Shown one piece after another: positions 35,714 to 62,042 of a stretch of 64,000 nucleotides of DNA; within the stretch, counting starts at the first letter, position 1, and each line of letters begins with the position of its first letter. The DNA is from a virus: IMG/VR virus record IMGVR_UViG_3300042731_008016, positions 1 through 64,000 of that record, one strand, 5' to 3'. The notes beneath the pieces are model-generated. The model had not been told where the DNA came from and searched no databases. It worked only from the letters and a program-made list of their open reading frames with translations. The translations under genes and the position numbers were made by a program.

Positions 35714-36871
35714 ATGCCAGATAAAAAATCTGCCGTTAATGGTAATTTATTTTCAAACAAAATTCTTGGTCTAGTAGATAGAGATCGAGAAATCAAACAG
35801 TTAATGTATGCCCTGTTTACCAAGGAGCACATGCTCTTAATGGGGCCTCCTGGTACTGCTAAATCACTTTTTGCTTCAAACGCTTTCAAAGCTATTGACG
35901 GAGCAAAATTATTTTCCATTCACTTAACCAAACAAACTACAGAAGAATACGTTTTTGGACCACTTAATATCATTGAGCTCAAAAAAGGAAACGTTGTTCA
36001 CAATACTAAGGATTCTATTTTGGAATCTGACTTTGCATTCATCGATGAGTTTTTTGATGCCTCTGACGTGCTCCTAAGATCGCTTTTAGGCGTCTTAAAC
36101 GAACGTGTATGGATGAAGGGTCAACAAAAGATAAATGCCAAGCTTCACACGGCTATCCTGACCTCCAACTACCAAAGAGAAAACGATGTTACCGAAGCTG
36201 TTTTGGATCGTGTGGTATTTAAAGCTGAAATTCAACCAATCACCGCTAAAAGCAAAAGAATGAGAGTTTACAAGGATTATCTTGGAGACTCTAACTTCCA
36301 ACCCCCAAAGATACTTGATCTCAAAAAGCTGAAAGAATTCACTGAGAAAGTGGATGATCCAAAGTCTGTAAAATTTAGCGACGACATTCTAAAGATATTT
36401 GATGAACTAGTCGATGAATATGCTAAAGAAACTAAAAAATACATATCTCAACGTACAGCTAATAAAGCTCTTAAAGTGCTCAAAGCTTCAGCCTTACTTA
36501 ACGGTAGAAAAGAAGTAGTCTACAAAGATATGGAAGAGCTCAAATATGTATTATGTGTGCTGAATAGAAGAGTTGAAGAAGAAGTTTTTGATGCTGTTTA
36601 TGAAAAATATGTTGGCAATGCCGAAGAAGAACAGATAGTTATGACTGACCTCGAAGAAATTGATGAGAAATTTTCTAAAGTTCCAACTAATTTTGATAAG
36701 CTTGGTGATAAAGATTTTGTAGAAAAAATGGCTGAACTCACAGAACTAGTAAATCTCTTAGAGAATATGAACTGTCCAACTCAACGAAGTAAACAAACTA
36801 GGGACAAACTCATGGACAAAATGAGAAAAGTCGTTGATGAAAACAGGGATAAATTATTTAAGAGAAGTTAA
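35714..36871 (+). CDS. MoxR/RavA-family AAA+ ATPase
   Basis: GPPGTAKS Walker A, AFIDEFF Walker B, TTEEYVFGP, AVLDR. Confidence 0.9.
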   Translation: MPDKKSAVNGNLFSNKILGLVDRDREIKQLMYALFTKEHMLLMGPPGTAKSLFASNAFKAIDGAKLFSIHLTKQTTEEYVFGPLNIIELKKGNVVHNTKDSILESDFAFIDEFFDASDVLLRSLLGVLNERVWMKGQQKINAKLHTAILTSNYQRENDVTEAVLDRVVFKAEIQPITAKSKRMRVYKDYLGDSNFQPPKILDLKKLKEFTEKVDDPKSVKFSDDILKIFDELVDEYAKETKKYISQRTANKALKVLKASALLNGRKEVVYKDMEELKYVLCVLNRRVEEEVFDAVYEKYVGNAEEEQIVMTDLEEIDEKFSKVPTNFDKLGDKDFVEKMAELTELVNLLENMNCPTQRSKQTRDKLMDKMRKVVDENRDKLFKRS

Positions 36872-36873
36872 CT

Positions 36874-37311
36874 ATGAGCATTAATACGCATAATCTAATT
36901 GTAGATTTCGGGAAACATAAGGGTGAGCGATGGACTAGAGTACCAGCAAGTTATCTTAGATGGTTAGTCAATCAACCCGAAGAAATCCCAGGAATGGAAA
37001 AAAACAAAGATATTGCAAAAGCTGAACTTGAACGTCGAGGAACTAAGATTGGTAAAGGAATTGTTGAAATTTCAAGTCATGCCATTGATTCGGCAAGCCT
37101 TCGGGTAAGAAAAACGTGGCATGAAACCAGTAATAAAGGAGAGGGTCTATACACTTGGCTACTTAGAATTGCTCAAGAAGCAGTCGAGAGTACCAATGAA
37201 CAACCAGAAAAATTAATATATAAAGGAATTAAATTCGTTTTTAAATGGGGCAATGAATTCCCAGTTTTAAAAACAGTAATGCCAGCTAAACATGAGAGTC
37301 ACAAAAACTAA
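36874..37311 (+). CDS. Protein with FGKHKG...VPxxYLxW domain (DUF3820-like)
   Basis: DFGKHKGERWTRVPASYLRWL. Confidence 0.65.
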   Translation: MSINTHNLIVDFGKHKGERWTRVPASYLRWLVNQPEEIPGMEKNKDIAKAELERRGTKIGKGIVEISSHAIDSASLRVRKTWHETSNKGEGLYTWLLRIAQEAVESTNEQPEKLIYKGIKFVFKWGNEFPVLKTVMPAKHESHKN

Positions 37312-39007
37312 ACTAAAAAAACAAATAAAAGAGCAGATTGCAAGCATGGTCGATGAGTCAGTCGTAGTAGATGACTTTACTTTATCCACTGATTTTGCTG
37401 AAGATCTATACGCATTATTTGCAGAAGAAATAAGTAAGCGTGGTATATTTAAAGGCTATTGGGAATTGTTCAAAGATGTAAAAAATCTATTTATTAGATT
37501 TAAAATCGGTGAGTTAATGAAGAATGTTGAGTTTTACTCACGGGTGAGGCAATTCTTTAGATATTTCATAACCTCAAAGCTTTTCTATGAGCTTGATAAG
37601 CTTGATGCAATGGAAGCCCTAGAAGCATTTCTAAGAATGTTTCAACCACCTCCACCACCAAATCAACCTCAACCAGGACAAGGCCAAGGAAATGATTCTG
37701 AAAATCAAGAAAGTCAACAAGACCAAAATGGTGACGGTCAAGGTAACAGCAAGCAAGATCAAAGCCAGCAAGGTCAAGGAGATCAACAACAAAGTAGTCA
37801 AGGTGATGGTGACGGCCAAGACAAACAGGATGGTCAACAAGGTCAAGGTGAAGGTGATGGAGATGGCAAAGAGAATAATTCAGAAGATGGCAATAGTGAA
37901 GAAGATCAAGATGATTCTCCTGGCAAAAGCAAACAACAACAGGGTAAAAAACAATCTCAACCTCAAAGCGGTAAAGGACAGGGTGGTAACAGTGAAGGGA
38001 AAGGTTCTGGTCAACAGCAACAACAGGGTGGAGATGGCAACCAATCACAACAGCCACCAAGACCACCAAGACGCAATACCCAAGATAAACAAGGCTTGAG
38101 TGCTGATGAAAAAAATCTTCCTATCGATATGACTAAGTTTAGACAAAGCCTTCCTAAAATCGAAAAGGCTATTGCTACTGGCATATTTGATAAAAACGAT
38201 GTGAAAAAATACCTAAATAAAAATGCTGGTATTGCCGAAAATGAACTTAAAGTTCACAACGTTATGGAAATCATTGACAAAATCTCAAGAAATGTTCGTG
38301 AACGTGATATGGATATTTTATATGTAGCCAGAATGAAAGAGGTTACTGAACGCTATCGTAGAGACGAAGTAATTAGTAGTGTTCCCTACCCAGATGATGA
38401 AATGACTATCAAAAATATTGAAGACTCAAATGAATTACTCAGGGTATTGCCAACAGAATTTATTCACGACGATGACGTCTTTATGCAAAAGTTTGTTAAA
38501 AAAGAATTGCAAATTAAGGACTATCAAGCTAGACGTTTAAAAAGACAAGTTTTATATCTCTTGATTGATGTTTCTGGAAGCATGAGGGGTTCAAGAAATG
38601 TCTACGCATCAGGAGTAGCTTTAGCTTTTGTTAGACAAGCTGTAACTGAAGGCTCTACTTATTTCCTACGCTTCTTTGACCACGGAATTAAACAACTAAA
38701 TACGGTCACTAATGAAAAAGAGGCAGAAAAAATGATGGATACTCTTATTAGACAACCTTACTCTGGGGGTGGTACCAGTATCAGCAATGCTCTTAGAACA
38801 GCAGTGAAGGATATTACTTCTGATCCTGAAGGATTTGAGAAAGCTGAAATCATGCTTATCACTGATGGTGAAGATAGTGTTGATTTATCTAAAAAAGATC
38901 TCAAAAAGATTAGGCTACACTCTACAGTCATAGAGGGTAATAATAGAGACCTTGAAGAGTTATCTAACAGTTATGTAGAGCTCAGAGAAAGAGACTTTAA
39001 GAGTTGA
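37292..39007 (+). CDS. VWA-domain protein (ViaA-like) with Gln/Gly-rich linker
   Basis: IDVSGSM MIDAS, GGGT, ITDGED. Confidence 0.9.
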   Translation: MRVTKTKLKKQIKEQIASMVDESVVVDDFTLSTDFAEDLYALFAEEISKRGIFKGYWELFKDVKNLFIRFKIGELMKNVEFYSRVRQFFRYFITSKLFYELDKLDAMEALEAFLRMFQPPPPPNQPQPGQGQGNDSENQESQQDQNGDGQGNSKQDQSQQGQGDQQQSSQGDGDGQDKQDGQQGQGEGDGDGKENNSEDGNSEEDQDDSPGKSKQQQGKKQSQPQSGKGQGGNSEGKGSGQQQQQGGDGNQSQQPPRPPRRNTQDKQGLSADEKNLPIDMTKFRQSLPKIEKAIATGIFDKNDVKKYLNKNAGIAENELKVHNVMEIIDKISRNVRERDMDILYVARMKEVTERYRRDEVISSVPYPDDEMTIKNIEDSNELLRVLPTEFIHDDDVFMQKFVKKELQIKDYQARRLKRQVLYLLIDVSGSMRGSRNVYASGVALAFVRQAVTEGSTYFLRFFDHGIKQLNTVTNEKEAEKMMDTLIRQPYSGGGTSISNALRTAVKDITSDPEGFEKAEIMLITDGEDSVDLSKKDLKKIRLHSTVIEGNNRDLEELSNSYVELRERDFKS

Positions 39008-40466: not shown

Positions 40467-41117
40467 ATGCCAATATCAGAAAAAGTACAAATCAATCCCC
40501 TAAAGATCAAAGTAATTGATGTTACCATTGTTGGTACTACTAGCATGATTCAGCATCGTTTTGGTCAAAAAGCTAGAATGCAGATTCTAGAAAAACAAAT
40601 GAGAACTGCTAAAACTGGGAAAAAGCCAGTAAGAGATCCAAATAATGAATTTGAGCAAGGCTTACATGTCATGGAGGAAGGTAAGTTTACCTACACAAAT
40701 AAAGAGAATCCTGGATTGGGTGAAGTTAAGTTCACTGGTAAAGTTGGATTCCCAGCCTTCGGAGTAAAAGCAGCTATAGTTGCAGCAGCTCGAAATGTAG
40801 ATGATCTTCCAATGACTCTATTAAGAGGGGCTCTTTTCCTTAAAGGTGATGAAAACGATTTAATTGAGGTCGAATACAAAAAACTCATTATGAGGGAACA
40901 TACTGTAGTTATTGGAAGAGGAACTACCGATCTAAGATATCGCCCAGAATTGAGAGACTGGACAATGAAATTACAAATTGAATTTAACTCTGACGTTTTA
41001 ACCGTTTCAGAAGTTATCAATCTGCTTTCAATTGCTGGATTCAGTGTTGGTTTGGCAGAGATGAGACCTGGAAAGACTGGTGGAAACTACGGGAAATTCG
41101 AAGTAAAGGAGCAATAA
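40467..41117 (+). CDS. Stand-alone RAMP/Cas7-like RNA-binding protein
   Basis: N-terminal strand VTIVGTTSMIQH; GFPAFGVKAAI (cf. RAMP IPgSsiKGalR); LRYRPE..W; C-terminal Gly-rich loop AGFSVGLAEMRPGKTGGNYGKFEV. Confidence 0.7.
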   Translation: MPISEKVQINPLKIKVIDVTIVGTTSMIQHRFGQKARMQILEKQMRTAKTGKKPVRDPNNEFEQGLHVMEEGKFTYTNKENPGLGEVKFTGKVGFPAFGVKAAIVAAARNVDDLPMTLLRGALFLKGDENDLIEVEYKKLIMREHTVVIGRGTTDLRYRPELRDWTMKLQIEFNSDVLTVSEVINLLSIAGFSVGLAEMRPGKTGGNYGKFEVKEQ

Positions 41118-41118
41118 A

Positions 41119-41571
41119 ATGTCTAAGCTAAAAAGAGTAGAAAAAATTGCAATTGTCTGTGAAAAGATTGAGAAAAGAGATGGTATTCTCACTCCTCAGG
41201 CGGTTGTTGATGAAGCAAAATCATCTACATGTCTAATTCACGATATGTTTGATTGGAATGATATTAGTGCTTCAGAAAAATATCGACTCGGACAAGCTAG
41301 AAAACTAATTAAAGAAGTAACTATTACTTACGAAAACAAAGAGATTCATAGTTATCAAAATGTTTTACTTAAAATTCAAAATCAGCAAGTTCAAGGTTAT
41401 GCTTCAACTGTAAACATTTTGCAAAATGATGATTTGCGAAAACAAGTAATAGCAAAAGCTTTACAAGAACTTTTGTACTGGCAAGCTGAATATGCTAAAT
41501 ACAAAGAATTAGCTGATTTAGTTGATGCTGATAAATTAAACAGTCTTAGCAAAAAACATAAAACTAAATAA
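41119..41571 (+). CDS. Partner protein of the RAMP-like gene
   Basis: Translationally coupled (TAA-A-ATG); GILTPQAVVDEA...HDMFDWND...YRLGQARKLI motif. Confidence 0.7.
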   Translation: MSKLKRVEKIAIVCEKIEKRDGILTPQAVVDEAKSSTCLIHDMFDWNDISASEKYRLGQARKLIKEVTITYENKEIHSYQNVLLKIQNQQVQGYASTVNILQNDDLRKQVIAKALQELLYWQAEYAKYKELADLVDADKLNSLSKKHKTK

Positions 41572-41587
41572 AAGATAAGCTCTTTAA

Positions 41588-41984
41588 CAATTAAATAAGT
41601 GACTATTGAGGCAGGTGTGTTAAGGCACGCTGAAATACGTTGTGTGTCGGTTCGGGCTGGGTGAGATAAGTCCAGATTGGGTAAGGCAGGTCAGTTAGGA
41701 TTTGGTAGATAGTGCAGCGATCAGATGAGCTCTGGAGGGATCAGGTTAGGTTTGGCAGGTAAGTTGGGTTGGGTTGGGTAGAGAATTGTTTAGTTACGGT
41801 CCGATAAGGCAGGTGTGATGGGTTTGGTTCCGATATGATGGAGTGCGGTTAGTTCTGGCAGGTGGGTTGGGCTGAAATGTGTCGGCAATGGACAGGTGGG
41901 TTATGGCAGGTGGAATTAGTTGCGATGTGTTCGGTTCAGGAGCGTTGCGATTAGGTGGGGTTTGATGTGTCACTTATTTAATTG
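41588..41984. repeat. Perfect 16-bp inverted repeat enclosing the array
   Basis: CAATTAAATAAGTGAC (41588-41603) / GTCACTTATTTAATTG (41969-41984). Confidence 0.9.
41610..41968 (+). ncRNA. Candidate guide-RNA array: six GGCA-headed units of G-n-T-N-N pentamers
   Basis: GGCAGGT at 41610, 41685, 41754, 41808, 41857 and 41905; 5-nt periodicity; no ORF in the track; strongly G/T biased. Confidence 0.75.
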
Positions 41985-42027: not shown

Positions 42028-42912
42028 ATGGAAGAACAAAAAATATTAATAGTTCCAATCGGCTCTATTAGACCAGATCCAGATCAACCAAGAAAAACAT
42101 TTCTTGATAGTCATATTAACAGTCTAGCTCAAAGCATAAAGCAAGAAGGATTCATAAATGAGATTGAAATTGATGTTAATAACATGATTGTTACTGGAGA
42201 ATGTAGATGGAGAGCTGCTAAAAAGCTTAATCTTACTGAAGTTCCGATAAAAATAAACGAAACACAGTTCACATCGTACACCAGATTACGAAGACAAATG
42301 GCTGAGAATGCCCACCAATCTGGGGCATCATACGAAAGAGCAATGAATCCTTTGGAAATAGCTGAGGGTTACGCTAGATTAATTAAGCTTAAAACTGGAA
42401 AAGATTGTCGGCCTGGCCAACAATCTCGTGAAGAATCTTACGGTTTAATAAAAGGGGTTGCCTCTGAATTAGGTCTCCATAGATCGACAGTTTATGAATA
42501 TTTAGAATTAATTGAACAACCAAAGGAACTTAAAAAAGCAATTGTCGAGAAGGGATTGCCACGAACTTATATTAGAGAAATTGAAAAAGCTCCTGAAGAA
42601 ATCAAACCAGCACTTCAGAAAAAAGCAGTTGAGGGTGGTTATTCAAGCAGAAGAGAAATCAAAGAAGACGTTAAGTTAGCCAAAGATCATCCCGATGTTG
42701 CTGAAAAAGTTATTCCTAGACAAACTCCAGAAGCAGCTAAAAAAGAATCTATTGGAGGAGGAAGGTTGCTTACTTGGATCAGTGAGGGAGTTTTGGCTTT
42801 GAGAGCAATTCCTAGAAGAGAAATAAGAATTGAAGAAAAAGGAGCAGTTGAACAACAGCTTGAATGGATAGTAGAAAAAATCAACGCTTGGCAGCGTGAT
42901 GAAAAAGTCTAA
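42028..42912 (+). CDS. ParB/Spo0J-like protein
   Basis: IRPDPDQPRKTF, IVTGECRWRAA, AEN, HTH (VASELGLHRSTV). Confidence 0.85.
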   Translation: MEEQKILIVPIGSIRPDPDQPRKTFLDSHINSLAQSIKQEGFINEIEIDVNNMIVTGECRWRAAKKLNLTEVPIKINETQFTSYTRLRRQMAENAHQSGASYERAMNPLEIAEGYARLIKLKTGKDCRPGQQSREESYGLIKGVASELGLHRSTVYEYLELIEQPKELKKAIVEKGLPRTYIREIEKAPEEIKPALQKKAVEGGYSSRREIKEDVKLAKDHPDVAEKVIPRQTPEAAKKESIGGGRLLTWISEGVLALRAIPRREIRIEEKGAVEQQLEWIVEKINAWQRDEKV

Positions 42913-43594: not shown

Positions 43595-43624
43595 ATGAAA
43601 ATATTCGCAGTTGGAGATAAGTAA
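43595..43624 (+). pseudogene. Stub of the metallophosphoesterase 5' end (MKIFAVGDK*)
   Basis: Matches RIFCVGD of the downstream phosphatase. Confidence 0.6.
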
Positions 43625-43625
43625 T

Positions 43626-44264
43626 ATGAAAAATATTTATATTATTCAAGATGATAATATTAGAGTTCTTTTTGGAACTCTTTTAGGCGATGCTTATTTC
43701 CCTAAATTGGCATTTAAACAACAAAATAGAAAAATAGCATGGGAACATACTGATAAACAAAGAGATTACGCTATTTGGAAAGCAAGAAGAATTGGATTTC
43801 AATGGAATAAATATGAAAGAAAAAGACTTGATAAAAGAACCAATAAAACATATAAATCAATTACGATAGTATTACGGGCAAATGAATCGTTTAATAAGAT
43901 TTACAAAATCTTTTGTCCAAAAAGCAAGAAGATAGTTACAAATGATATTCTAAGTTATTTATCTAAAGAAGCTGTTGCTATTTGGTATTGTGATGATGGG
44001 AATTTATATCAAAATAAAGATACTAATCATTTAACATTATCTATACAATCTTTTAAAAATAAACAGTTAATTATTGACTTCTTTAAAAGAAAATTTAGTG
44101 TTAATTTTAAATTAAATGATGGAGCAATTAGATTAGTTAATAAAAACGAGATCAGAAAATTTATTGATTCAATAAAACCTTATGTTCCAATCATGATGCA
44201 ATACAAAATAGATTTTGTTGATTATAAAACGTATAAAGGACGATATTATGGTAAAGACAGATAG
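43626..44264 (+). CDS. Free-standing LAGLIDADG homing endonuclease
   Basis: [10 protein letters not shown] and AIWYCDDG motifs. Confidence 0.85.
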
Positions 44265-45012
44265 AATTTTTTGCGTGGGCGACATCCATGGTTGTTACAC
44301 TGAGCTAATGTTGCTCATGGAGAAGCTACCAATCAATCCAGAAAAAGACCAGGTAGTTTTCCTAGGAGACTATATTGATAGGGGACCTGATTCAAAAAAA
44401 GTTGTTGAGCAATTAATCAAGTGGAAGAAGAAATACCCCCATTGGGTATTCTTGTGTGGTAATCATGAAGATATTTTTTATGACTATTTAGTTAGAAGTG
44501 GAGCTTTGTATGGTTTTCAAAACTGGTTTGTTAATGGTGGAAAAATTACTTACCAAAATTATGGAGGCCATTTTGGAGCTAAAGTATATGACAAAGAGTT
44601 AAAAAAAGTCGTTTTTGAGGCACCTAGACCTGCCGATTTTCCCAAGGAACATCTAGATTTTCTATTTAAGGAACTTCCATTCACTTATGAGACAGAAGAT
44701 TACTTTTTTGTTCATGGTGGTGTAATTCCTGAAGCTTCCCTGGAAGAAAGTAAAAAGCATTGGAAAACTATGCTGTGGGCTCGGGACGGTTTTATTGATA
44801 GTGAATACGATTGGGGGAAAAAGATTATCTTTGGTCATACTCCAGCTTATAAAAAGGAATGGGGTGTATTTGGCCAACCAATCATTATGAAAAATAAAAT
44901 AGGTCTTGATGGAGCTTGTTGCCCAGGAGCATGTAAAAACTTAATTGCTGTTGAGCTTCCTTCAGAGAAATTCTATTTACAGGAGAATGTAACATGCAAA
45001 AAAGAAAAATAG
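44248..45012 (+). CDS. Ser/Thr protein phosphatase-like metallophosphoesterase
   Basis: GDIHG, GDYIDRG, GNHE, FVHGG, FGHT. Confidence 0.92.
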
Positions 45013-57779: not shown

Positions 57780-58441
57780 CTGACTTAAATGCCCTATTAC
57801 CAAATCCAAAAGATATTAATTTATCTGCAGCTCACGTTGATTTTAAACACCTAGATAAAACAGCTCTCAGACGTGCAAAAGTTCGTGAATTAATGCAGAT
57901 GGGTTACAACAATACCCAAATTTCCCTAATTTTAGAAAAAGGAATTAGAGTTGGTGAGGGAAATGAACAAAAAGAAGTTCAAGTCCCCTGTAGTGAAGGT
58001 ACTATCAGAAATGATATTAACTACATTCAAACTGAGTTCCTTTCAGCTGATGATGACATGTTGGTCAAAAGAGGCGAGCTTCTAGATAAACTTGGATTTC
58101 TTTATAATCAAGCTGTATCAAATTACACAACAGCAAAAGGGGCAGTTAAAAATAGTTTCTTGAATACAGCTTTAAATGTTATTAATAAGATTATGGAGGT
58201 TGAAGGTGTAAAATCTCCAGAGAATCTTAATGTTAATCTAAATGCAGAAGCTAAAGTAGCTCAGTTTGCTGCAGAAATACATAAATTAAGCGAAAATGAC
58301 AAATCTACTATTCTCAGCGCAATTCGAAAAGTTCGTGAGGGACGCTTCAACAAAGGAAATGGAGAATCTGGAGTTTCTGATTCAGAACCCGAAGTACGAG
58401 CATCGACCAGTAACGATGAAGGAGTTCCTGGAGAATCCTAA
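57776..58441 (+). CDS. Probable terminase small subunit
   Basis: HTH-like RRAKVRELMQMGYNNTQI...SEGTIRNDI; directly upstream of TerL. Confidence 0.55.
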   Translation: MTDLNALLPNPKDINLSAAHVDFKHLDKTALRRAKVRELMQMGYNNTQISLILEKGIRVGEGNEQKEVQVPCSEGTIRNDINYIQTEFLSADDDMLVKRGELLDKLGFLYNQAVSNYTTAKGAVKNSFLNTALNVINKIMEVEGVKSPENLNVNLNAEAKVAQFAAEIHKLSENDKSTILSAIRKVREGRFNKGNGESGVSDSEPEVRASTSNDEGVPGES

Positions 58442-61400
58442 ATTTGTTAATCCACAGGATGCTCCAAGACCTCATAATAAGCAACTCTTAATCGATATTT
58501 TTGATAGCGGTAAAACATTTGAAGATTTTGAGAACCTTGGTAAATACGAGGAGGCTCTCTATATTGCTGGAATTGGGAGTGGTAAATGTCTTGCTAGGGG
58601 AACCAAAATCATCCGCTATTCAGGTAAGGTTGATGTTGTAGAAAATATTAAACAAGGTGACTTGTTAATGGGCTGGGACAGTAAGCCAAGAAAGGTGATC
58701 TCACTATCAAGGGGCAGGGAAAAATTATATAAAGTAACTCCAACTAAAGGCGAACCTTTTATCATAAATCAATCCCATATTTTGTCGCTTAAAAGAACAA
58801 ACAGGGGTATTATTGCCAATAATGGCAGGTTAGATCAAAAAGCAGGAGAGATAATAAACATATCAGTCTTGGAATATCTAGAGTTAAGCAACAAAATGAA
58901 GAACATTTTAAAACTATGGAGGGTTGGTATAAATTTTAAGAAAAAGAAGGTTAGTATAGATCCATACTTTTTGGGACTATGGTTGGGGGACGGTAATTCT
59001 CATAATATCGGAATCGCCACACAGGACATTGAGATTAAGAATGAAATATATAAACAAGCAAAAGTTTGTGGACTCGTGGTAAATATTAATCAAAATAAAA
59101 ACAAAACTTGTCCAACATATATTGTCACAAGTGGAACAAAGTTGGGAAGTAAAAACAGAAATTCGCTATTAGAAAATTTTAAACAATATAATCTCATCAA
59201 AAATAAATATATTCCGCAAGTATATAAATTCAACTCAAAGAAAATCAGATTACAGTTGTTAGCAGGGCTAATTGATAGCGATGGATATCAAGGAAATAAC
59301 TGTTTGGAGTTTTCCAATAAAAATAAAACCTTAATTGATGATATTACATACCTGTGTCGTTCGTTAGGTTTTGCTGCCTATATAAAACAAAGGAAAACTT
59401 CCTGCAATGGAAAATCATTCATATCATATAGAGTTTCTATATCGGGAGATTTAGAAAAAATTCCTGTTCAACTAGAAAGAAAAAAATGTACTAAAAGGAC
59501 ACAAAAGAAGGATGTTCTTTTAACTGGATTTAAAATAGAACCTATTGGAATTGGTGATTATTATGGATTTGATGTAGATAGAGACCATTTGTATTTATTA
59601 GGTGATTTCACAGTTACCCATAATTCTTATGTTTCCTCAATGGCCATTGTTTATAATATTTATCGTCTTCTTTGCTTAAAAGATCCACAAGCCTATTTTA
59701 AATTTGCTAAAGGCACAAAGATTGCTTTTATTAACATTTCCACATCTTTTTCACAAGCTAAGGATGTTGTTTTTAGCGAAATTAAAAACCGTGTTGATAA
59801 CAACCAATGGTTTCAAAACTTCTTTCCACCTAACCCGAGAATTAAATCACTTCTTCAATTCCCTAAAAATATTTATATTTTGCCTCTAGGATCAAATGAA
59901 GAGTCTCCTCTCGGATACAATATTTTTGGAGCCGTCATTGACGAGGCTTCATTTCATACTTTAACTAAAGATAAAGATTACGCTGAAGAATCTTATAACC
60001 AGATTAAGAAACGTATTCGTTCTCGATTTTTATCTAAAGGAAAACTTTTCATTATTACTTCACCTCGGTACGTTTATGACTTCGCTGAGAAGAAAATGGA
60101 AGAGGAAGCTGATAATCCAAAAGTTTATAAAAAAAGAACTCCTCTCTGGGATGCTATGCCACCAGATAGATTCTCTGGACAAAAATTTGATCTAGGCAAA
60201 TATCTCCCCGCCTATAAGGGCGTCATGGTCCCCGTGGAATACGAGGACGAGTTCAAACAAAATCCCGAGAAAGCCATGCGGGACTATGGCGCCCAACCAT
60301 CTCAAGCTATCCAAAGCTTTTTTGCTAATCCATCAATCATTGATGATAATGCTAATTATGATAGAAAACACCCAATTAATCCCAAAGATGGTGAATTTCA
60401 CACATGGTTTTTCAACAGAGCAAGTCAAGAAGATTATGATTCAGATAAAAGATTTATTCATGTTGACCTTGGACTTAATAGAGAAGGAAAAGGCGACTGT
60501 GCTGGGTTTGCTATGGGTAAATTTGATGGATGGATTGAAAAACAGAGTACATCTGGAAAAATGGAAAAGCGTCCAAAAGTTAAAATTGATCTTATGTTAA
60601 GAATTGAGGCTGGACCACGCAAAGAAATTAAATTTGAAGAAATCAGACAAATGATCTATAAAATCAGAGATATTGGTTATAATATTCACAAGATTACTTT
60701 TGATGGTTGGCAAAGCGAAATTGGAAGTACAATGGTCAAGTTGCTTGATGGGACAAACAAAAGAATGGATGAAATTACAAACGGTGCTTGGATTTATTCA
60801 TTTGACTTAAATAAAAAAGAAATTGTCCCAGCCTTTTGTAAACCAGTAAAACAAACTGGAATAAATGCTCCAGTTTACGAAATCATCATAGATAATGGAC
60901 AAAAAATATACCTAACAAAAGAACATCCATTGTTAATGAAAAATGGAACCTATAAACAAGTAGAGTTTCTTAAATGTGGAGATAGTTTGATGCCATTTAA
61001 TACAAGCTTTTTAGAAAGAAAAAACAAAACTAATACAAAACCAAGACAATATGAAAAAATATTCCAACCAAATACAAATACTTGGGAAATGACACATGAT
61101 ATGGTTGCTAGGAATGTTTATGGAGAAAAACCAAAAAATAATGTAGTTCATCATAAAGATTTTAATTCTCTAAATAATGAACCAGACAATTTAGAGTATT
61201 TATATGTTAAGAAGCATACTGCATATCATCGAAAATTAACTCAAAAATCTAATCAAATCAGATGGTCAAAAAAAGGTGAAAGACGGAAGCAAGCTCAATT
61301 AATGAGAGATAGAAATAAAAAATATAATTTACCATCTTTATTAAAACCACCAACTAAAGAGATTGCTAAAAAAATAGCACTAACAATTAAAAACAAATGG

Positions 61401-62042
61401 GACAATAATAACGAATATCAAGAAAAAATGGCAAAAAGACCAGTATATTGTGGTGAGTATTCTCCACATTTTAATAGAGATATACCTAATGAAATATTAT
61501 TTAAAGCCTGTGCTACCAGTAATTCTCTGGAAGAAGTTAAGCAAAAATTGAACCTTAAAAATACGTTTTTTGTTATAAGAAGATTAAAGACATTGGGTTA
61601 CAAAGGATTCAAGGACTACAAATCACAAAAAAATCATAAAGTTGTATCTGTCAAATTTCATGGATATGAGGATGTTTATGACATAGAAGTACCAAAATAT
61701 AATAATTTTGGACTTTCGGCAGGTATATTTGTTCATAATTCCATAGACTCTATTCAAATGCTTAATTCAGCTGGTTTTAAAGCTGAGACATTCTCAATCG
61801 ATAGGAATCCAGAAGCCTACTATACCGTCAAAGCTGCAATTTTAGATGATCGTCTTGATTATTACTATTACGCACCATTTTCTGAAGAACTTAAACAACT
61901 TGAAGAAATTAAAGGCATGAAAATCGATCACCCTAGACAAGGAAAGAAAGACGTAGCTGATGCTGTAGCTGGAGTATGTTATCACGCTGCACAAGGAACT
62001 CCTGGTGTCGGATTTCTTGGAGTCAAACAGACACAATCTTGA
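58296..62042 (+). CDS. terL: Terminase large subunit with two inteins
   Basis: Walker A GIGSGK|S, Walker B AVIDE, nuclease HVDLG, FDGWQ|S, KIDHP..GKKDVADAVAG. Confidence 0.9.
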   Translation: MTNLLFSAQFEKFVRDASTKEMENLEFLIQNPKYEHRPVTMKEFLENPKFVNPQDAPRPHNKQLLIDIFDSGKTFEDFENLGKYEEALYIAGIGSGKCLARGTKIIRYSGKVDVVENIKQGDLLMGWDSKPRKVISLSRGREKLYKVTPTKGEPFIINQSHILSLKRTNRGIIANNGRLDQKAGEIINISVLEYLELSNKMKNILKLWRVGINFKKKKVSIDPYFLGLWLGDGNSHNIGIATQDIEIKNEIYKQAKVCGLVVNINQNKNKTCPTYIVTSGTKLGSKNRNSLLENFKQYNLIKNKYIPQVYKFNSKKIRLQLLAGLIDSDGYQGNNCLEFSNKNKTLIDDITYLCRSLGFAAYIKQRKTSCNGKSFISYRVSISGDLEKIPVQLERKKCTKRTQKKDVLLTGFKIEPIGIGDYYGFDVDRDHLYLLGDFTVTHNSYVSSMAIVYNIYRLLCLKDPQAYFKFAKGTKIAFINISTSFSQAKDVVFSEIKNRVDNNQWFQNFFPPNPRIKSLLQFPKNIYILPLGSNEESPLGYNIFGAVIDEASFHTLTKDKDYAEESYNQIKKRIRSRFLSKGKLFIITSPRYVYDFAEKKMEEEADNPKVYKKRTPLWDAMPPDRFSGQKFDLGKYLPAYKGVMVPVEYEDEFKQNPEKAMRDYGAQPSQAIQSFFANPSIIDDNANYDRKHPINPKDGEFHTWFFNRASQEDYDSDKRFIHVDLGLNREGKGDCAGFAMGKFDGWIEKQSTSGKMEKRPKVKIDLMLRIEAGPRKEIKFEEIRQMIYKIRDIGYNIHKITFDGWQSEIGSTMVKLLDGTNKRMDEITNGAWIYSFDLNKKEIVPAFCKPVKQTGINAPVYEIIIDNGQKIYLTKEHPLLMKNGTYKQVEFLKCGDSLMPFNTSFLERKNKTNTKPRQYEKIFQPNTNTWEMTHDMVARNVYGEKPKNNVVHHKDFNSLNNEPDNLEYLYVKKHTAYHRKLTQKSNQIRWSKKGERRKQAQLMRDRNKKYNLPSLLKPPTKEIAKKIALTIKNKWDNNNEYQEKMAKRPVYCGEYSPHFNRDIPNEILFKACATSNSLEEVKQKLNLKNTFFVIRRLKTLGYKGFKDYKSQKNHKVVSVKFHGYEDVYDIEVPKYNNFGLSAGIFVHNSIDSIQMLNSAGFKAETFSIDRNPEAYYTVKAAILDDRLDYYYYAPFSEELKQLEEIKGMKIDHPRQGKKDVADAVAGVCYHAAQGTPGVGFLGVKQTQS
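58587..59624 (+). mobile_element. Intein 1 (346 aa) with LAGLIDADG endonuclease
   Basis: CLARGT...LGLWLGDG...LAGLIDSDG...VTHN|S, inserted in Walker A. Confidence 0.92.
60714..61739 (+). mobile_element. Intein 2 (342 aa) with HNH endonuclease, Ser-initiated
   Basis: SEIGSTMVKLLDG...TKEHP...VHHKDFNSLNNEPDNL...DVYDIEV...FVHN|S. Confidence 0.88.

What the first reader, a model, noticed from the sequence alone, without database searches (positions are those of the whole stretch)
40467..41984. Candidate phage RNA-guided system: lone RAMP/Cas7-like gene, partner gene and a pentamer-coded non-CRISPR array
Seen: a 216-aa ORF with RAMP-like motifs (FPAFGVKAAI, YRPE..W, Gly-rich AGFSVGLAEMRP...GNYGKFEV), a coupled 150-aa ORF, then a ~360-nt non-coding array of six GGCA-headed units inside an inverted repeat. 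No cas1/2/3/5/6 genes or canonical repeat-spacer array occur in the window. Known: Cas7-type RAMPs polymerise on guide RNA with a fixed nucleotide step per subunit. Inference: the protein polymerises on processed array units, about one subunit per pentamer. It would grip the conserved G-n-T and display the variable NN bases, giving a nuclease-free programmable binder against competing phages or host genes. From memory (unverified), this resembles recently reported phage 'VIPR'-type RAMP plus GGY/NN RNA systems, but the consensus here is a looser G-[G/T/A]-T.
Basis: partly seen in the sequence, partly recalled or inferred. Interest (0 to 1): 0.95.

Follow-up and report, generated by a model that had tools for sequence, protein, structure and literature searches.

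The report
Phage VIPR RNA-guided silencing locus
This stretch of a complete 100.8-kb wetland phage genome is a full VIPR system (a Cas7-like Vipr protein, its accessory protein and six pentamer-coded guide RNAs), a kind described in 2026 preprints; two of its guides match conserved codons of bacterial defence genes (capP and hsdM), a target class not mentioned in the three VIPR preprints I could search.

Summary
ORF 40467-41117 is a Vipr protein. A profile of 40 homologs hits the solved SUSP1 Vipr (PDB 36pp) at E 1.3e-11 over nearly its full length. The AlphaFold model (pLDDT 91) matches Csm3/Cas7 RAMPs.

ORF 41119-41571 is the conserved accessory gene (vap). The 359-nt tract 41614-41972 is the only pentamer-periodic region in the whole genome. 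It parses into six guides of 9-14 G-K-Y-N-N units, each closed by a 4-nt GGCA. This gives 5n-1 spacing in four of the six guides; the other two carry a 1-nt indel. That fits the published 'staggered array' layout.

All 60 evaluable homologous loci carry a same-strand array beside vipr. The 16-nt flanking inverted repeat and the ParB-like neighbour are not conserved parts.

New here: under the published 1-nt-skip rule, guide 2 matches 25 or 26 of 26 positions, in frame, on the HEXXH codons of capP in three bacterial genomes. CapP is the protease that switches on CBASS and other immune operons. Guide 3 matches the KGGGEFYTPK codons of type I R-M hsdM 20/20 in five genomes or viral contigs. Four other guides found no target.

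The locus is a new member of a known kind. It raises a testable, unreported possibility that a phage uses VIPR as counter-defence. Earlier first-stage notes of this scan on the same genome had proposed the HsdM reading, which I confirm. They read guide 2 as a methyltransferase motif, which I correct to CapP.

The parts
40467..41117 (+). vipr: 216-aa Vipr protein, a minimal RAMP with an RRM core, a long beta-hairpin thumb (about residues 139-163), a Gly-rich loop (191-209) and a helical insert (34-64)
   Evidence: phrog_4652 at E 3e-23. phmmer hits PDB 36pp 'SUSP1 Vipr protein' at E 1.6e-3. A 40-sequence profile hits it at E 1.3e-11 over 21-197 / 4-188. The AF2 model has pLDDT 91.3. Foldseek top hits are Csm3/Cas7 subunits at E 5e-6 to 1e-4.
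41119..41571 (+). vap: 150-aa Vipr-accessory protein of unknown biochemical role, with a possible winged-helix-like N-terminal part and a helical hairpin
   Evidence: phrog_15946 at E 5e-26. It is 31-33% identical to the gene beside vipr in Gordonia and Mycobacterium phages. A homolog lies downstream of vipr in 53 of 60 evaluable loci. In isolated phages the vap hits are 27 Mycobacterium, 5 Gordonia and one cyanophage record; the vipr hits are 27 Mycobacterium, 5 Gordonia and one Pseudomonas record. The family has 8092 representative clusters. The model has pLDDT 95.5, but fold matches are weak (Foldseek E above 0.1, VIA Z about 6 to PadR/MecI/Fox winged helices).
41588..41603 (.). left arm of a perfect 16-nt inverted repeat bracketing the array
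   Evidence: It is not conserved in related loci.
41610..41613 (+). leading GGCA delimiter before the first guide
41614..41688 (+). vrRNA 1: 14 units plus closing GGCA, with one 6-nt unit at 41644-41649. NN decode as V[KN]T[DE]TVRR[CW][DE][KN][HQ][CW][KN], which looks like an XRE helix-turn-helix; unverified
   Evidence: No exact target was found in IMG/VR for a 20-base core.
41689..41757 (+). vrRNA 2: 13 units plus GGCA. NN = codon positions 1-2 of (Q)RFSVAHELGHYF, the HEXXH motif of CapP
41758..41811 (+). vrRNA 3: 10 units plus GGCA. NN = codon positions 1-2 of KGGGEFYTPK of type I R-M HsdM
41812..41860 (+). vrRNA 4: 9 units plus GGCA; target not found
41861..41908 (+). vrRNA 5: 9 units (one 4-nt unit) plus GGCA; target not searched in the large collections
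41909..41972 (+). vrRNA 6: 12 units closed by GTCA, which runs into the right repeat arm; target not found
41969..41984 (.). right arm of the 16-nt inverted repeat

Best explanation
The locus is a complete VIPR (Viral Interference Programmable Repeat) system of a 100.8-kb tailed phage (direct terminal repeats; CheckV estimate 100% complete; source a wetland metagenome). It comprises vipr, vap and a six-guide 'staggered' vrRNA array. Shown here: homology of the protein to the solved SUSP1 Vipr, the RAMP fold, the pentamer grammar, the conserved vipr-vap-array module across 60 loci, and exact wobble-aligned matches of two guides to capP and hsdM. Inferred from the SUSP1 biochemistry and cryo-EM: the array is transcribed with the operon and cut or delimited at the GGCA|G junctions into RNAs of 48-75 nt. 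One Vipr protomer binds each pentamer and sequesters G1, position 2 and Y3. The exposed NN pairs read double-stranded DNA, skipping every third base, and the filament blocks transcription without cutting. Because both matched guides have the sense-strand sequence, they can pair only with the template DNA strand and not with the mRNA. Vipr residues that contact G1, Y3 and the backbone in SUSP1 are kept (H17=H30, D177=E198, R138=R159, R179=R200, K33=K35). The tryptophan that stacks on G2 (W178) is methionine here (M199) and throughout the closest subclade. This fits the degenerate second position (G/T/A) of the repeats.
For: Protein: (E 1.3e-11 to PDB 36pp; RAMP fold). Residue mapping: against contacts listed in 10.64898/2026.04.26.720927.

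Array. The same GGCA|GG delimiters and 5n-1 spacing occur in actinophage homolog arrays.

Co-occurrence: all 60 evaluable distinct vipr loci have a + strand array. No upstream or minus-strand array was found outside the three GC-rich actinophage loci.

Targets, guide 2: the 22-base core has 3 exact hits among 185,579 genomes, where I calculate about 0.07 expected by chance, plus 1 in IMG/VR. Over the full guide the matches are 26/26 in two, 25/26 and 24/26. All are in frame with the skip at wobble. All fall in PADLOC capP proteins (E 2e-39 to 2e-69); capH lies beside two of them and CBASS genes lie nearby.

Targets, guide 3: 20/20 in 3 IMG/VR contigs and in 2 of 121 sampled genomes, with 0 matches for the backwards control. 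The three IMG/VR hits were checked: all are in frame in HsdM.

Background and self-targeting: four other guide patterns with 18-22 specified bases gave 0 hits in the same collection. No guide matches the phage's own genome; the best is 19/26, the same as for wrong skip lengths.
Against: There is no expression or processing data for this array, because no RNA run holds the sequence. Position 2 is degenerate, and two guides carry a 1-nt indel in a unit, so some guides may be decaying. Four of six guides have no identified target. The matched genomes are Pseudomonadota MAGs and viral contigs of 38-59% GC, not a demonstrated host of this 35% GC phage, so the natural targets are inferred only at the gene-family level. 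The VIPR type (I-VII) could not be assigned, because the type figures and tables are not in the held text. The M199 / position 2 link rests on only 3 W-type loci, all GC-rich actinophages.
Confidence: 0.9

Rival explanations
1. Role rival A (counter-defence): the phage uses VIPR to silence host immune operons. A Vipr filament sits on the conserved capP codons and blocks read-through into the downstream defence genes when CapH is cleaved. Another filament on hsdM blocks type I R-M expression.
For: The exact-match targets are bona fide defence genes. In L088, capH-capP lies in the same orientation directly upstream of a CBASS SAVED-endonuclease effector and cyclase. In L089 it lies beside a CBASS phospholipase effector. 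In L087 a capP-like gene lies beside a type I REase. CapH/CapP regulate hundreds of CBASS and other immune operons (10.1101/2022.04.27.489752), so capP is a conserved handle on varied defences. The phage itself has no capP or hsdM homolog.
Against: Pre-made restriction enzyme and CapP protein are not removed by transcriptional silencing, and restriction acts at DNA entry, before VIPR is made. [quoted passage not shown] In L089 the effector is divergent from capP, so a polar block would not reach it. No host is known. No precedent was found in the three VIPR preprints: zero hits for CBASS, hsdM, anti-defense and counter-defense in the two that were word-searched.
Confidence: 0.35
2. Role rival B (inter-element conflict, the published VIPR role): the capP-like ImmA-type protease and the hsdM belong to competing prophages, ICEs or satellites. 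Silencing them blocks a competitor's induction switch or its own carried R-M.
For: Published natural targets are satellites, prophage lysis-lysogeny regulators and other VIPRs. CapH/CapP resemble regulators that control mobilisation of prophages and mobile elements. All three IMG/VR hsdM hits lie on contigs classed as viral, one of them a complete provirus. Guide 1 decodes to an XRE-type HTH-like peptide (unverified).
Against: The perfect capP matches sit in chromosomal CBASS loci, not in recognisable prophage switch modules. hsdM is not needed for an element's propagation.
Confidence: 0.4
3. The G/T-rich tract is a DNA-level element, such as iterons or a centromere for the adjacent ParB-like protein, or merely a decaying remnant, and not a guide array.
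For: A ParB-like gene follows at 42028-42912. The tract is bracketed by an inverted repeat. The repeat consensus is looser than GGY.
Against: The array travels with vipr and vap in 60 of 60 loci, whereas ParB homologs occur in only 4 of 86 loci. It is always on the coding strand of vipr. Its variable dinucleotides spell conserved protein motifs exactly, in frame, in unrelated genomes, which a protein-binding iteron or a decaying sequence would not do.
Confidence: 0.03

Closest known systems
Type II VIPR of Escherichia phage SUSP1 and the Pseudomonas fulva prophage (bioRxiv 10.64898/2026.04.26.720920; structures in 10.64898/2026.04.26.720927; PDB 36pp)
   Same: Homologous Vipr protein with the same RRM, thumb and G-loop layout and conserved G1, Y3 and backbone contact residues. 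A two-gene vipr-vap operon with no cas genes. Pentanucleotide guide repeats, 9-14 per guide. Guides that match targets with one skipped base aligned to codon wobble positions at catalytic-core codons.
   Different: Only about E 1e-3 by single-sequence search, and neither vipr nor vap finds SUSP1 by tblastn at the E limits used (1e-5 for vipr, 1e-3 for vap). There is no conserved 3' tail or pseudoknot between guides; guides are separated only by GGCA with a -1 phase shift. Position 2 is G/T/A rather than G, with M in place of the G2-stacking W178. Predicted targets are defence genes rather than a satellite recombinase or prophage regulators.
'Staggered' vrRNA arrays described for other VIPR types (fig. 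S18 of 10.64898/2026.04.26.720920)
   Same: Consecutive guides share a 1-nt overlap, so that the end of one marks the start of the next. Here the spacing is 5n-1 in four guides, and the delimiter is the same as in the Gordonia and Mycobacterium phage homologs.
   Different: The figure and type tables are not in the held text, so identity of architecture and type could not be checked against the authors' example.
Class 1 CRISPR backbone subunits (Cas7/Csm3/Cmr4)
   Same: Best structural matches of the model. One subunit per fixed RNA step, with a thumb that flips bases.
   Different: No CRISPR repeats, no Cas1, Cas2 or Cas6, a 5-nt rather than 6-nt step, and no match to the Pfam RAMPs model.

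Membership tests
VIPR system | Vipr protein homologous to characterised Vipr | tested here: met
   The profile of 40 homologs hits PDB 36pp (SUSP1 Vipr) at E 1.3e-11, covering 21-197 of 202 profile positions. The single sequence hits at E 1.6e-3.
VIPR system | Minimal RAMP fold with RRM core, thumb hairpin and glycine-rich loop | tested here: met
   The AF2 model has pLDDT 91.3. Foldseek top hits are Csm3/Cas7-type chains at E 5e-6 to 3e-4 with TM 0.37-0.49. This is a predicted model, not a solved structure.
VIPR system | Residues contacting G1, G2, Y3 and the target backbone (H17, D177, R138, W178, R179, K33 of SUSP1) | tested here: inconclusive
   H30, E198, R159, R200 and K35 align and are invariant or nearly so. 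W178 aligns to M199, and is M in the whole closest subclade.
VIPR system | Adjacent non-coding array of GGY/NN-type pentanucleotide repeats on the vipr strand | tested here: met
   The consensus is G-K/A-Y-N-N, a 'related consensus' of the kind the paper allows.
VIPR system | 9-16 repeats per vrRNA | tested here: met
   14, 13, 10, 9, 9 and 12 units.
VIPR system | Conserved accessory gene (vap) in the operon; no cas genes or CRISPR array | tested here: met
   for vap. for the absence of Cas1, Pfam RAMPs and CRISPR-like repeats.
VIPR system | Guides match natural targets under the 1-nt skip rule and do not match the element's own genome | tested here: met
   Two of six guides have perfect wobble-aligned matches. 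There is no self match of 80% or more.
VIPR system | vrRNAs are expressed, bound by Vipr and repress DNA targets | not testable with these tools
   No RNA run holds the locus. This needs bench work.
VIPR type II (SUSP1 clade) | vrRNA with an invariant structured 3' tail or pseudoknot | tested here: not met
   Only GGCA is constant between guides. There is no Rfam match.
CRISPR-Cas class 1 | Repeat-spacer array and adaptation or processing genes | tested here: not met

The most novel reading that the evidence does not exclude
A virulent-looking phage carries a VIPR array programmed against bacterial immunity itself. Its guides read only codon positions 1-2 of the most conserved motifs of capP (the switch for CBASS and other operons) and of type I hsdM. 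One short RNA could then silence many sequence-diverged defence loci. That would make VIPR an RNA-guided counter-defence system, with a relaxed G-K-Y repeat code read by an M-for-W Vipr variant.
Probability: 0.3. Interest if true: 0.85.

Novelty: new member of a known kind. Interest (0 to 1): 0.55.

Why it matters
VIPR was described only in 2026 and its natural roles are documented for a few clades. This locus adds a complete, cleanly parsed example from an uncultured 35% GC phage. It shows that the vipr-vap-array module is invariant across at least 60 diverse metagenomic and actinophage loci. It also gives two concrete, checkable target predictions in defence genes. If those hold, phages would have a programmable, mutation-resistant way to shut down host immune operons. 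The W-to-M change would then point to how the constant part of the code can drift.

Tried and rejected

Searches that found nothing:
- The search for related loci with the 40-sequence alignment failed for lack of conserved blocks.
- The single protein found nothing in IMG/VR.
- Megablast of 12 kb around the locus found no related isolated phage.
- No listed sequencing run holding the locus is on record as RNA, so expression could not be examined and read laying was not used.

Target searches without result:
- vr6: 22- and 20-base cores in IMG/VR, up to 3 mismatches in 5 records and in 401 genomes.
- vr1: 20-base core.
- vr4: 18 bases.
- vr5 was not searched in the large collections.
- No guide of the 59 related arrays matched the capP or hsdM loci in hand better than wrong-skip controls, so the target class is not shown to be general.
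- The capP- and hsdM-bearing loci are not co-targeted by the other guides.

Parts rejected:
- The flanking inverted repeat was tested as a family feature and rejected.
- ParB was tested as a system component and rejected.
- The promoter/terminator scan gave nothing above shuffle level.
- Rfam gave no match, so no hammerhead ribozyme between guides.

Vap: no Pfam, NCBIfam or PADLOC family. The profile against PDB gave only a coiled-coil-like Rad50 hit at E 0.02. Fold searches gave only weak winged-helix-like rows.

Complex prediction was not used, because no protein-protein binding is claimed.

Full report
**What is there**

The window is the first 64 kb of a 100,839-bp virus record with direct terminal repeats, estimated complete, at 35% GC. 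It encodes a tape measure protein, portal, large terminase, UvsX-like recombinase and seven tRNAs. The only run holding the full stretch is a wetland metagenome.

At 40467-41117 lies a 216-aa ORF, followed one base later by a 150-aa ORF (41119-41571). A G/T-rich non-coding tract follows, up to the next gene at 42028.

**The protein is a Vipr**

- Pfam, NCBIfam and PADLOC are silent. PHROGs places it in phrog_4652, of unknown function.
- Against all PDB sequences, the single protein hits 'SUSP1 Vipr protein' (36pp) at E 1.6e-3 through the YRP...W...AG...G.E.RP region.
- A profile of 40 homologs hits 36pp at E 1.3e-11 across almost the whole length.
- The AlphaFold model is confident (pLDDT 91.3). 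Its best structural neighbours are Csm3, Cmr4 and type VII Cas7 backbone subunits.
- Mapping the contacts reported for SUSP1 gives H17=H30, R138=R159, D177=E198, R179=R200 and K33=K35. These are invariant or nearly so in the family.
- W178, which stacks on the second guanine of GGY, is M199 here and M in every member of the closest subclade.

**The array**

- G and T show strong autocorrelation at lags 5, 10 and 15. Period-5 power exceeds all 2000 shuffles and every other 300-nt window.
- A phase-tracking parse gives units G1 (87-92% G), position 2 (G 0.37, T 0.34, A 0.24), position 3 (T 0.72-0.74, C 0.12-0.15), then N-N.
- The phase slips by -1 at each GGCA. This yields six guides of 14, 13, 10, 9, 9 and 12 units. 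Lengths 69, 54, 49 and 64 equal 5n-1. The 75- and 48-nt guides each carry a 1-nt indel in one unit.
- This is the 'staggered' layout that the VIPR paper describes in words.
- The same GGCA|GG delimiter is visible in the arrays next to the Gordonia and Mycobacterium phage homologs.
- No other place in the genome, on either strand, reaches the same score.

**Conservation of the module**

- I collected 86 loci with homologs: three actinophages, 19 IMG/VR contigs and 64 metagenome contigs. They hold 71 distinct vipr genes.
- All 60 loci with enough downstream sequence have a pentamer array on the vipr strand, usually 0.5-1.1 kb downstream. Outside the three GC-rich actinophage loci, none has one upstream or on the opposite strand.
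- A vap homolog lies downstream in 53 of the 60.
- In isolated phages, vipr finds 27 Mycobacterium, 5 Gordonia and one Pseudomonas record. vap finds 27 Mycobacterium, 5 Gordonia and one cyanophage record.
- The ParB-like gene, the upstream genes and the 16-nt inverted repeat are not conserved.
- Vap belongs to a very large family: 8092 representative clusters at E 1e-3 or better. It folds confidently. It gives only weak winged-helix-like matches, so its biochemical role stays open.

**Targets**

I used the published rule, NN joined by one skipped base.

- No guide matches the phage's own genome better than wrong-skip controls.
- Guide 2: a 22-base core of the guide has one exact hit in IMG/VR and three in one-genome-per-species GTDB contigs. 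My calculation of the chance expectation for the latter is 2 x 596e9 / 4^22, or about 0.07. Over the full 26 positions the matches are 26/26 in two, 25/26 and 24/26.
- Every guide 2 hit is in frame with the skipped base at the wobble position. The peptide is (Q)RFSVAHELGHYF, the HEXXH motif of Peptidase_M78 proteins.
- PADLOC calls these proteins CapP (E 2e-39 to 2e-69). capH lies beside two of them, and CBASS effectors, cyclases, TRIP13 or a type I REase lie around them.
- Guide 3: all 20 bases have three exact hits in IMG/VR and two among 121 sampled genomes, with none for the backwards control. The three IMG/VR hits are in frame at KGGGEFYTPK of HsdM proteins.
- Four other guide patterns of 18-22 specified bases found nothing in IMG/VR. 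This shows the background is low.
- Both matched guides have the sense sequence, so they can pair only with template DNA.
- Targeting catalytic-core codons with wobble-aligned skips is exactly the logic reported for SUSP1.

**Reading**

The identity is secure: this is a VIPR system and so a known kind. The mechanism is taken over from SUSP1 by homology.

What the guides are for is open. CapH/CapP drive expression of CBASS and other immune operons after DNA damage, and they resemble mobile-element switches. So guide 2 could block immune induction (counter-defence) or a competitor's induction (the published role). Guide 3 points to type I R-M, chromosomal or provirus-borne.

Caveats:
- Silencing does not remove pre-made proteins.
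- CapP was reported as not required for protection.
- The host is unknown.
- The matched genomes are stand-ins.

The two VIPR preprints that I word-searched contain none of the terms CBASS, hsdM, anti-defense or counter-defense; the cryo-EM preprint was not word-searched.

**Earlier notes of this scan**

Earlier notes on the same genome had proposed the HsdM decoding of unit 3, which I confirm. They proposed an XRE decoding of unit 1, for which I found no database match. They proposed a methyltransferase decoding of unit 2, which I replace with CapP.

**Tool status**

Noticed in passing
L001:3125-3448 (Gordonia phage UmaThurman gp40, NC_031249.1 33362-33685): The annotated 'hypothetical protein' CDS gp40 lies entirely inside a perfect GGY/NN pentamer array (L001 3107-3437). 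It is probably a vrRNA array mis-called as a gene. In Mycobacterium phage Brocalys the array lies upstream of vipr (L003 2092-2335), and the annotated vipr CDS start at 2333 overlaps it.
   Followed up: partly
window 41588-41603 and 41969-41984: A perfect 16-nt inverted repeat brackets the whole array. The best in shuffles is 10 nt, and it is absent from 38 of 41 related loci. It could close the primary transcript into a long-range stem, or it could mark a cassette boundary. It is unexplained.
   Followed up: partly
window 40467-41117, residue M199; alignment A1: The G-loop residue equivalent to the G2-stacking W178 of SUSP1 varies by subclade: M in the window's subclade (E-M-R-P), R in another (E-R-R-P), W, F, D or N elsewhere. 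Arrays next to E-M-R-P proteins have G/T at repeat position 2 (mean 0.49/0.37, n=35). Three W-type actinophage arrays are mostly G. GC content confounds the comparison.
   Followed up: partly
window 58296-62042: The large terminase ORF is 1248 aa. It has terminase matches in residues 79-509 and HNH endonuclease matches around residues 914-1115, which suggests an inserted or fused homing-endonuclease or intein-like segment.
   Followed up: no
window 35714-39007: An ATPase gene (phrog_19600) is followed by a 571-aa ORF with a long Q/G/D/S-rich low-complexity middle. Its C-terminal part carries a DxSGS motif that looks von Willebrand A-like by eye, so this may be a MoxR-VWA-type pair.
   Followed up: no
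window 43611-45012: ORF 43611-44264 has LAGLIDADG-like motifs (LLGDAY, WYCDDG) by eye. ORF 44215-45012 has metallophosphatase motifs (GDIHG, GDYIDRG, GNHE). Neither was run against a family library.
   Followed up: no
L023:2410 and L025:3795 (closest related arrays): Guides in two close relatives decode to FYATP- and VYTP-containing peptides, which are reminiscent of N6-methyltransferase motifs. They are too short (7-10 NN) to test with the scans left.
   Followed up: no
L092:11994-13838: One of the HsdM targets carries an N-terminal XRE-type HTH_3 domain fused to HsdM_N plus N6_Mtase, which is an unusual architecture.
   Followed up: no
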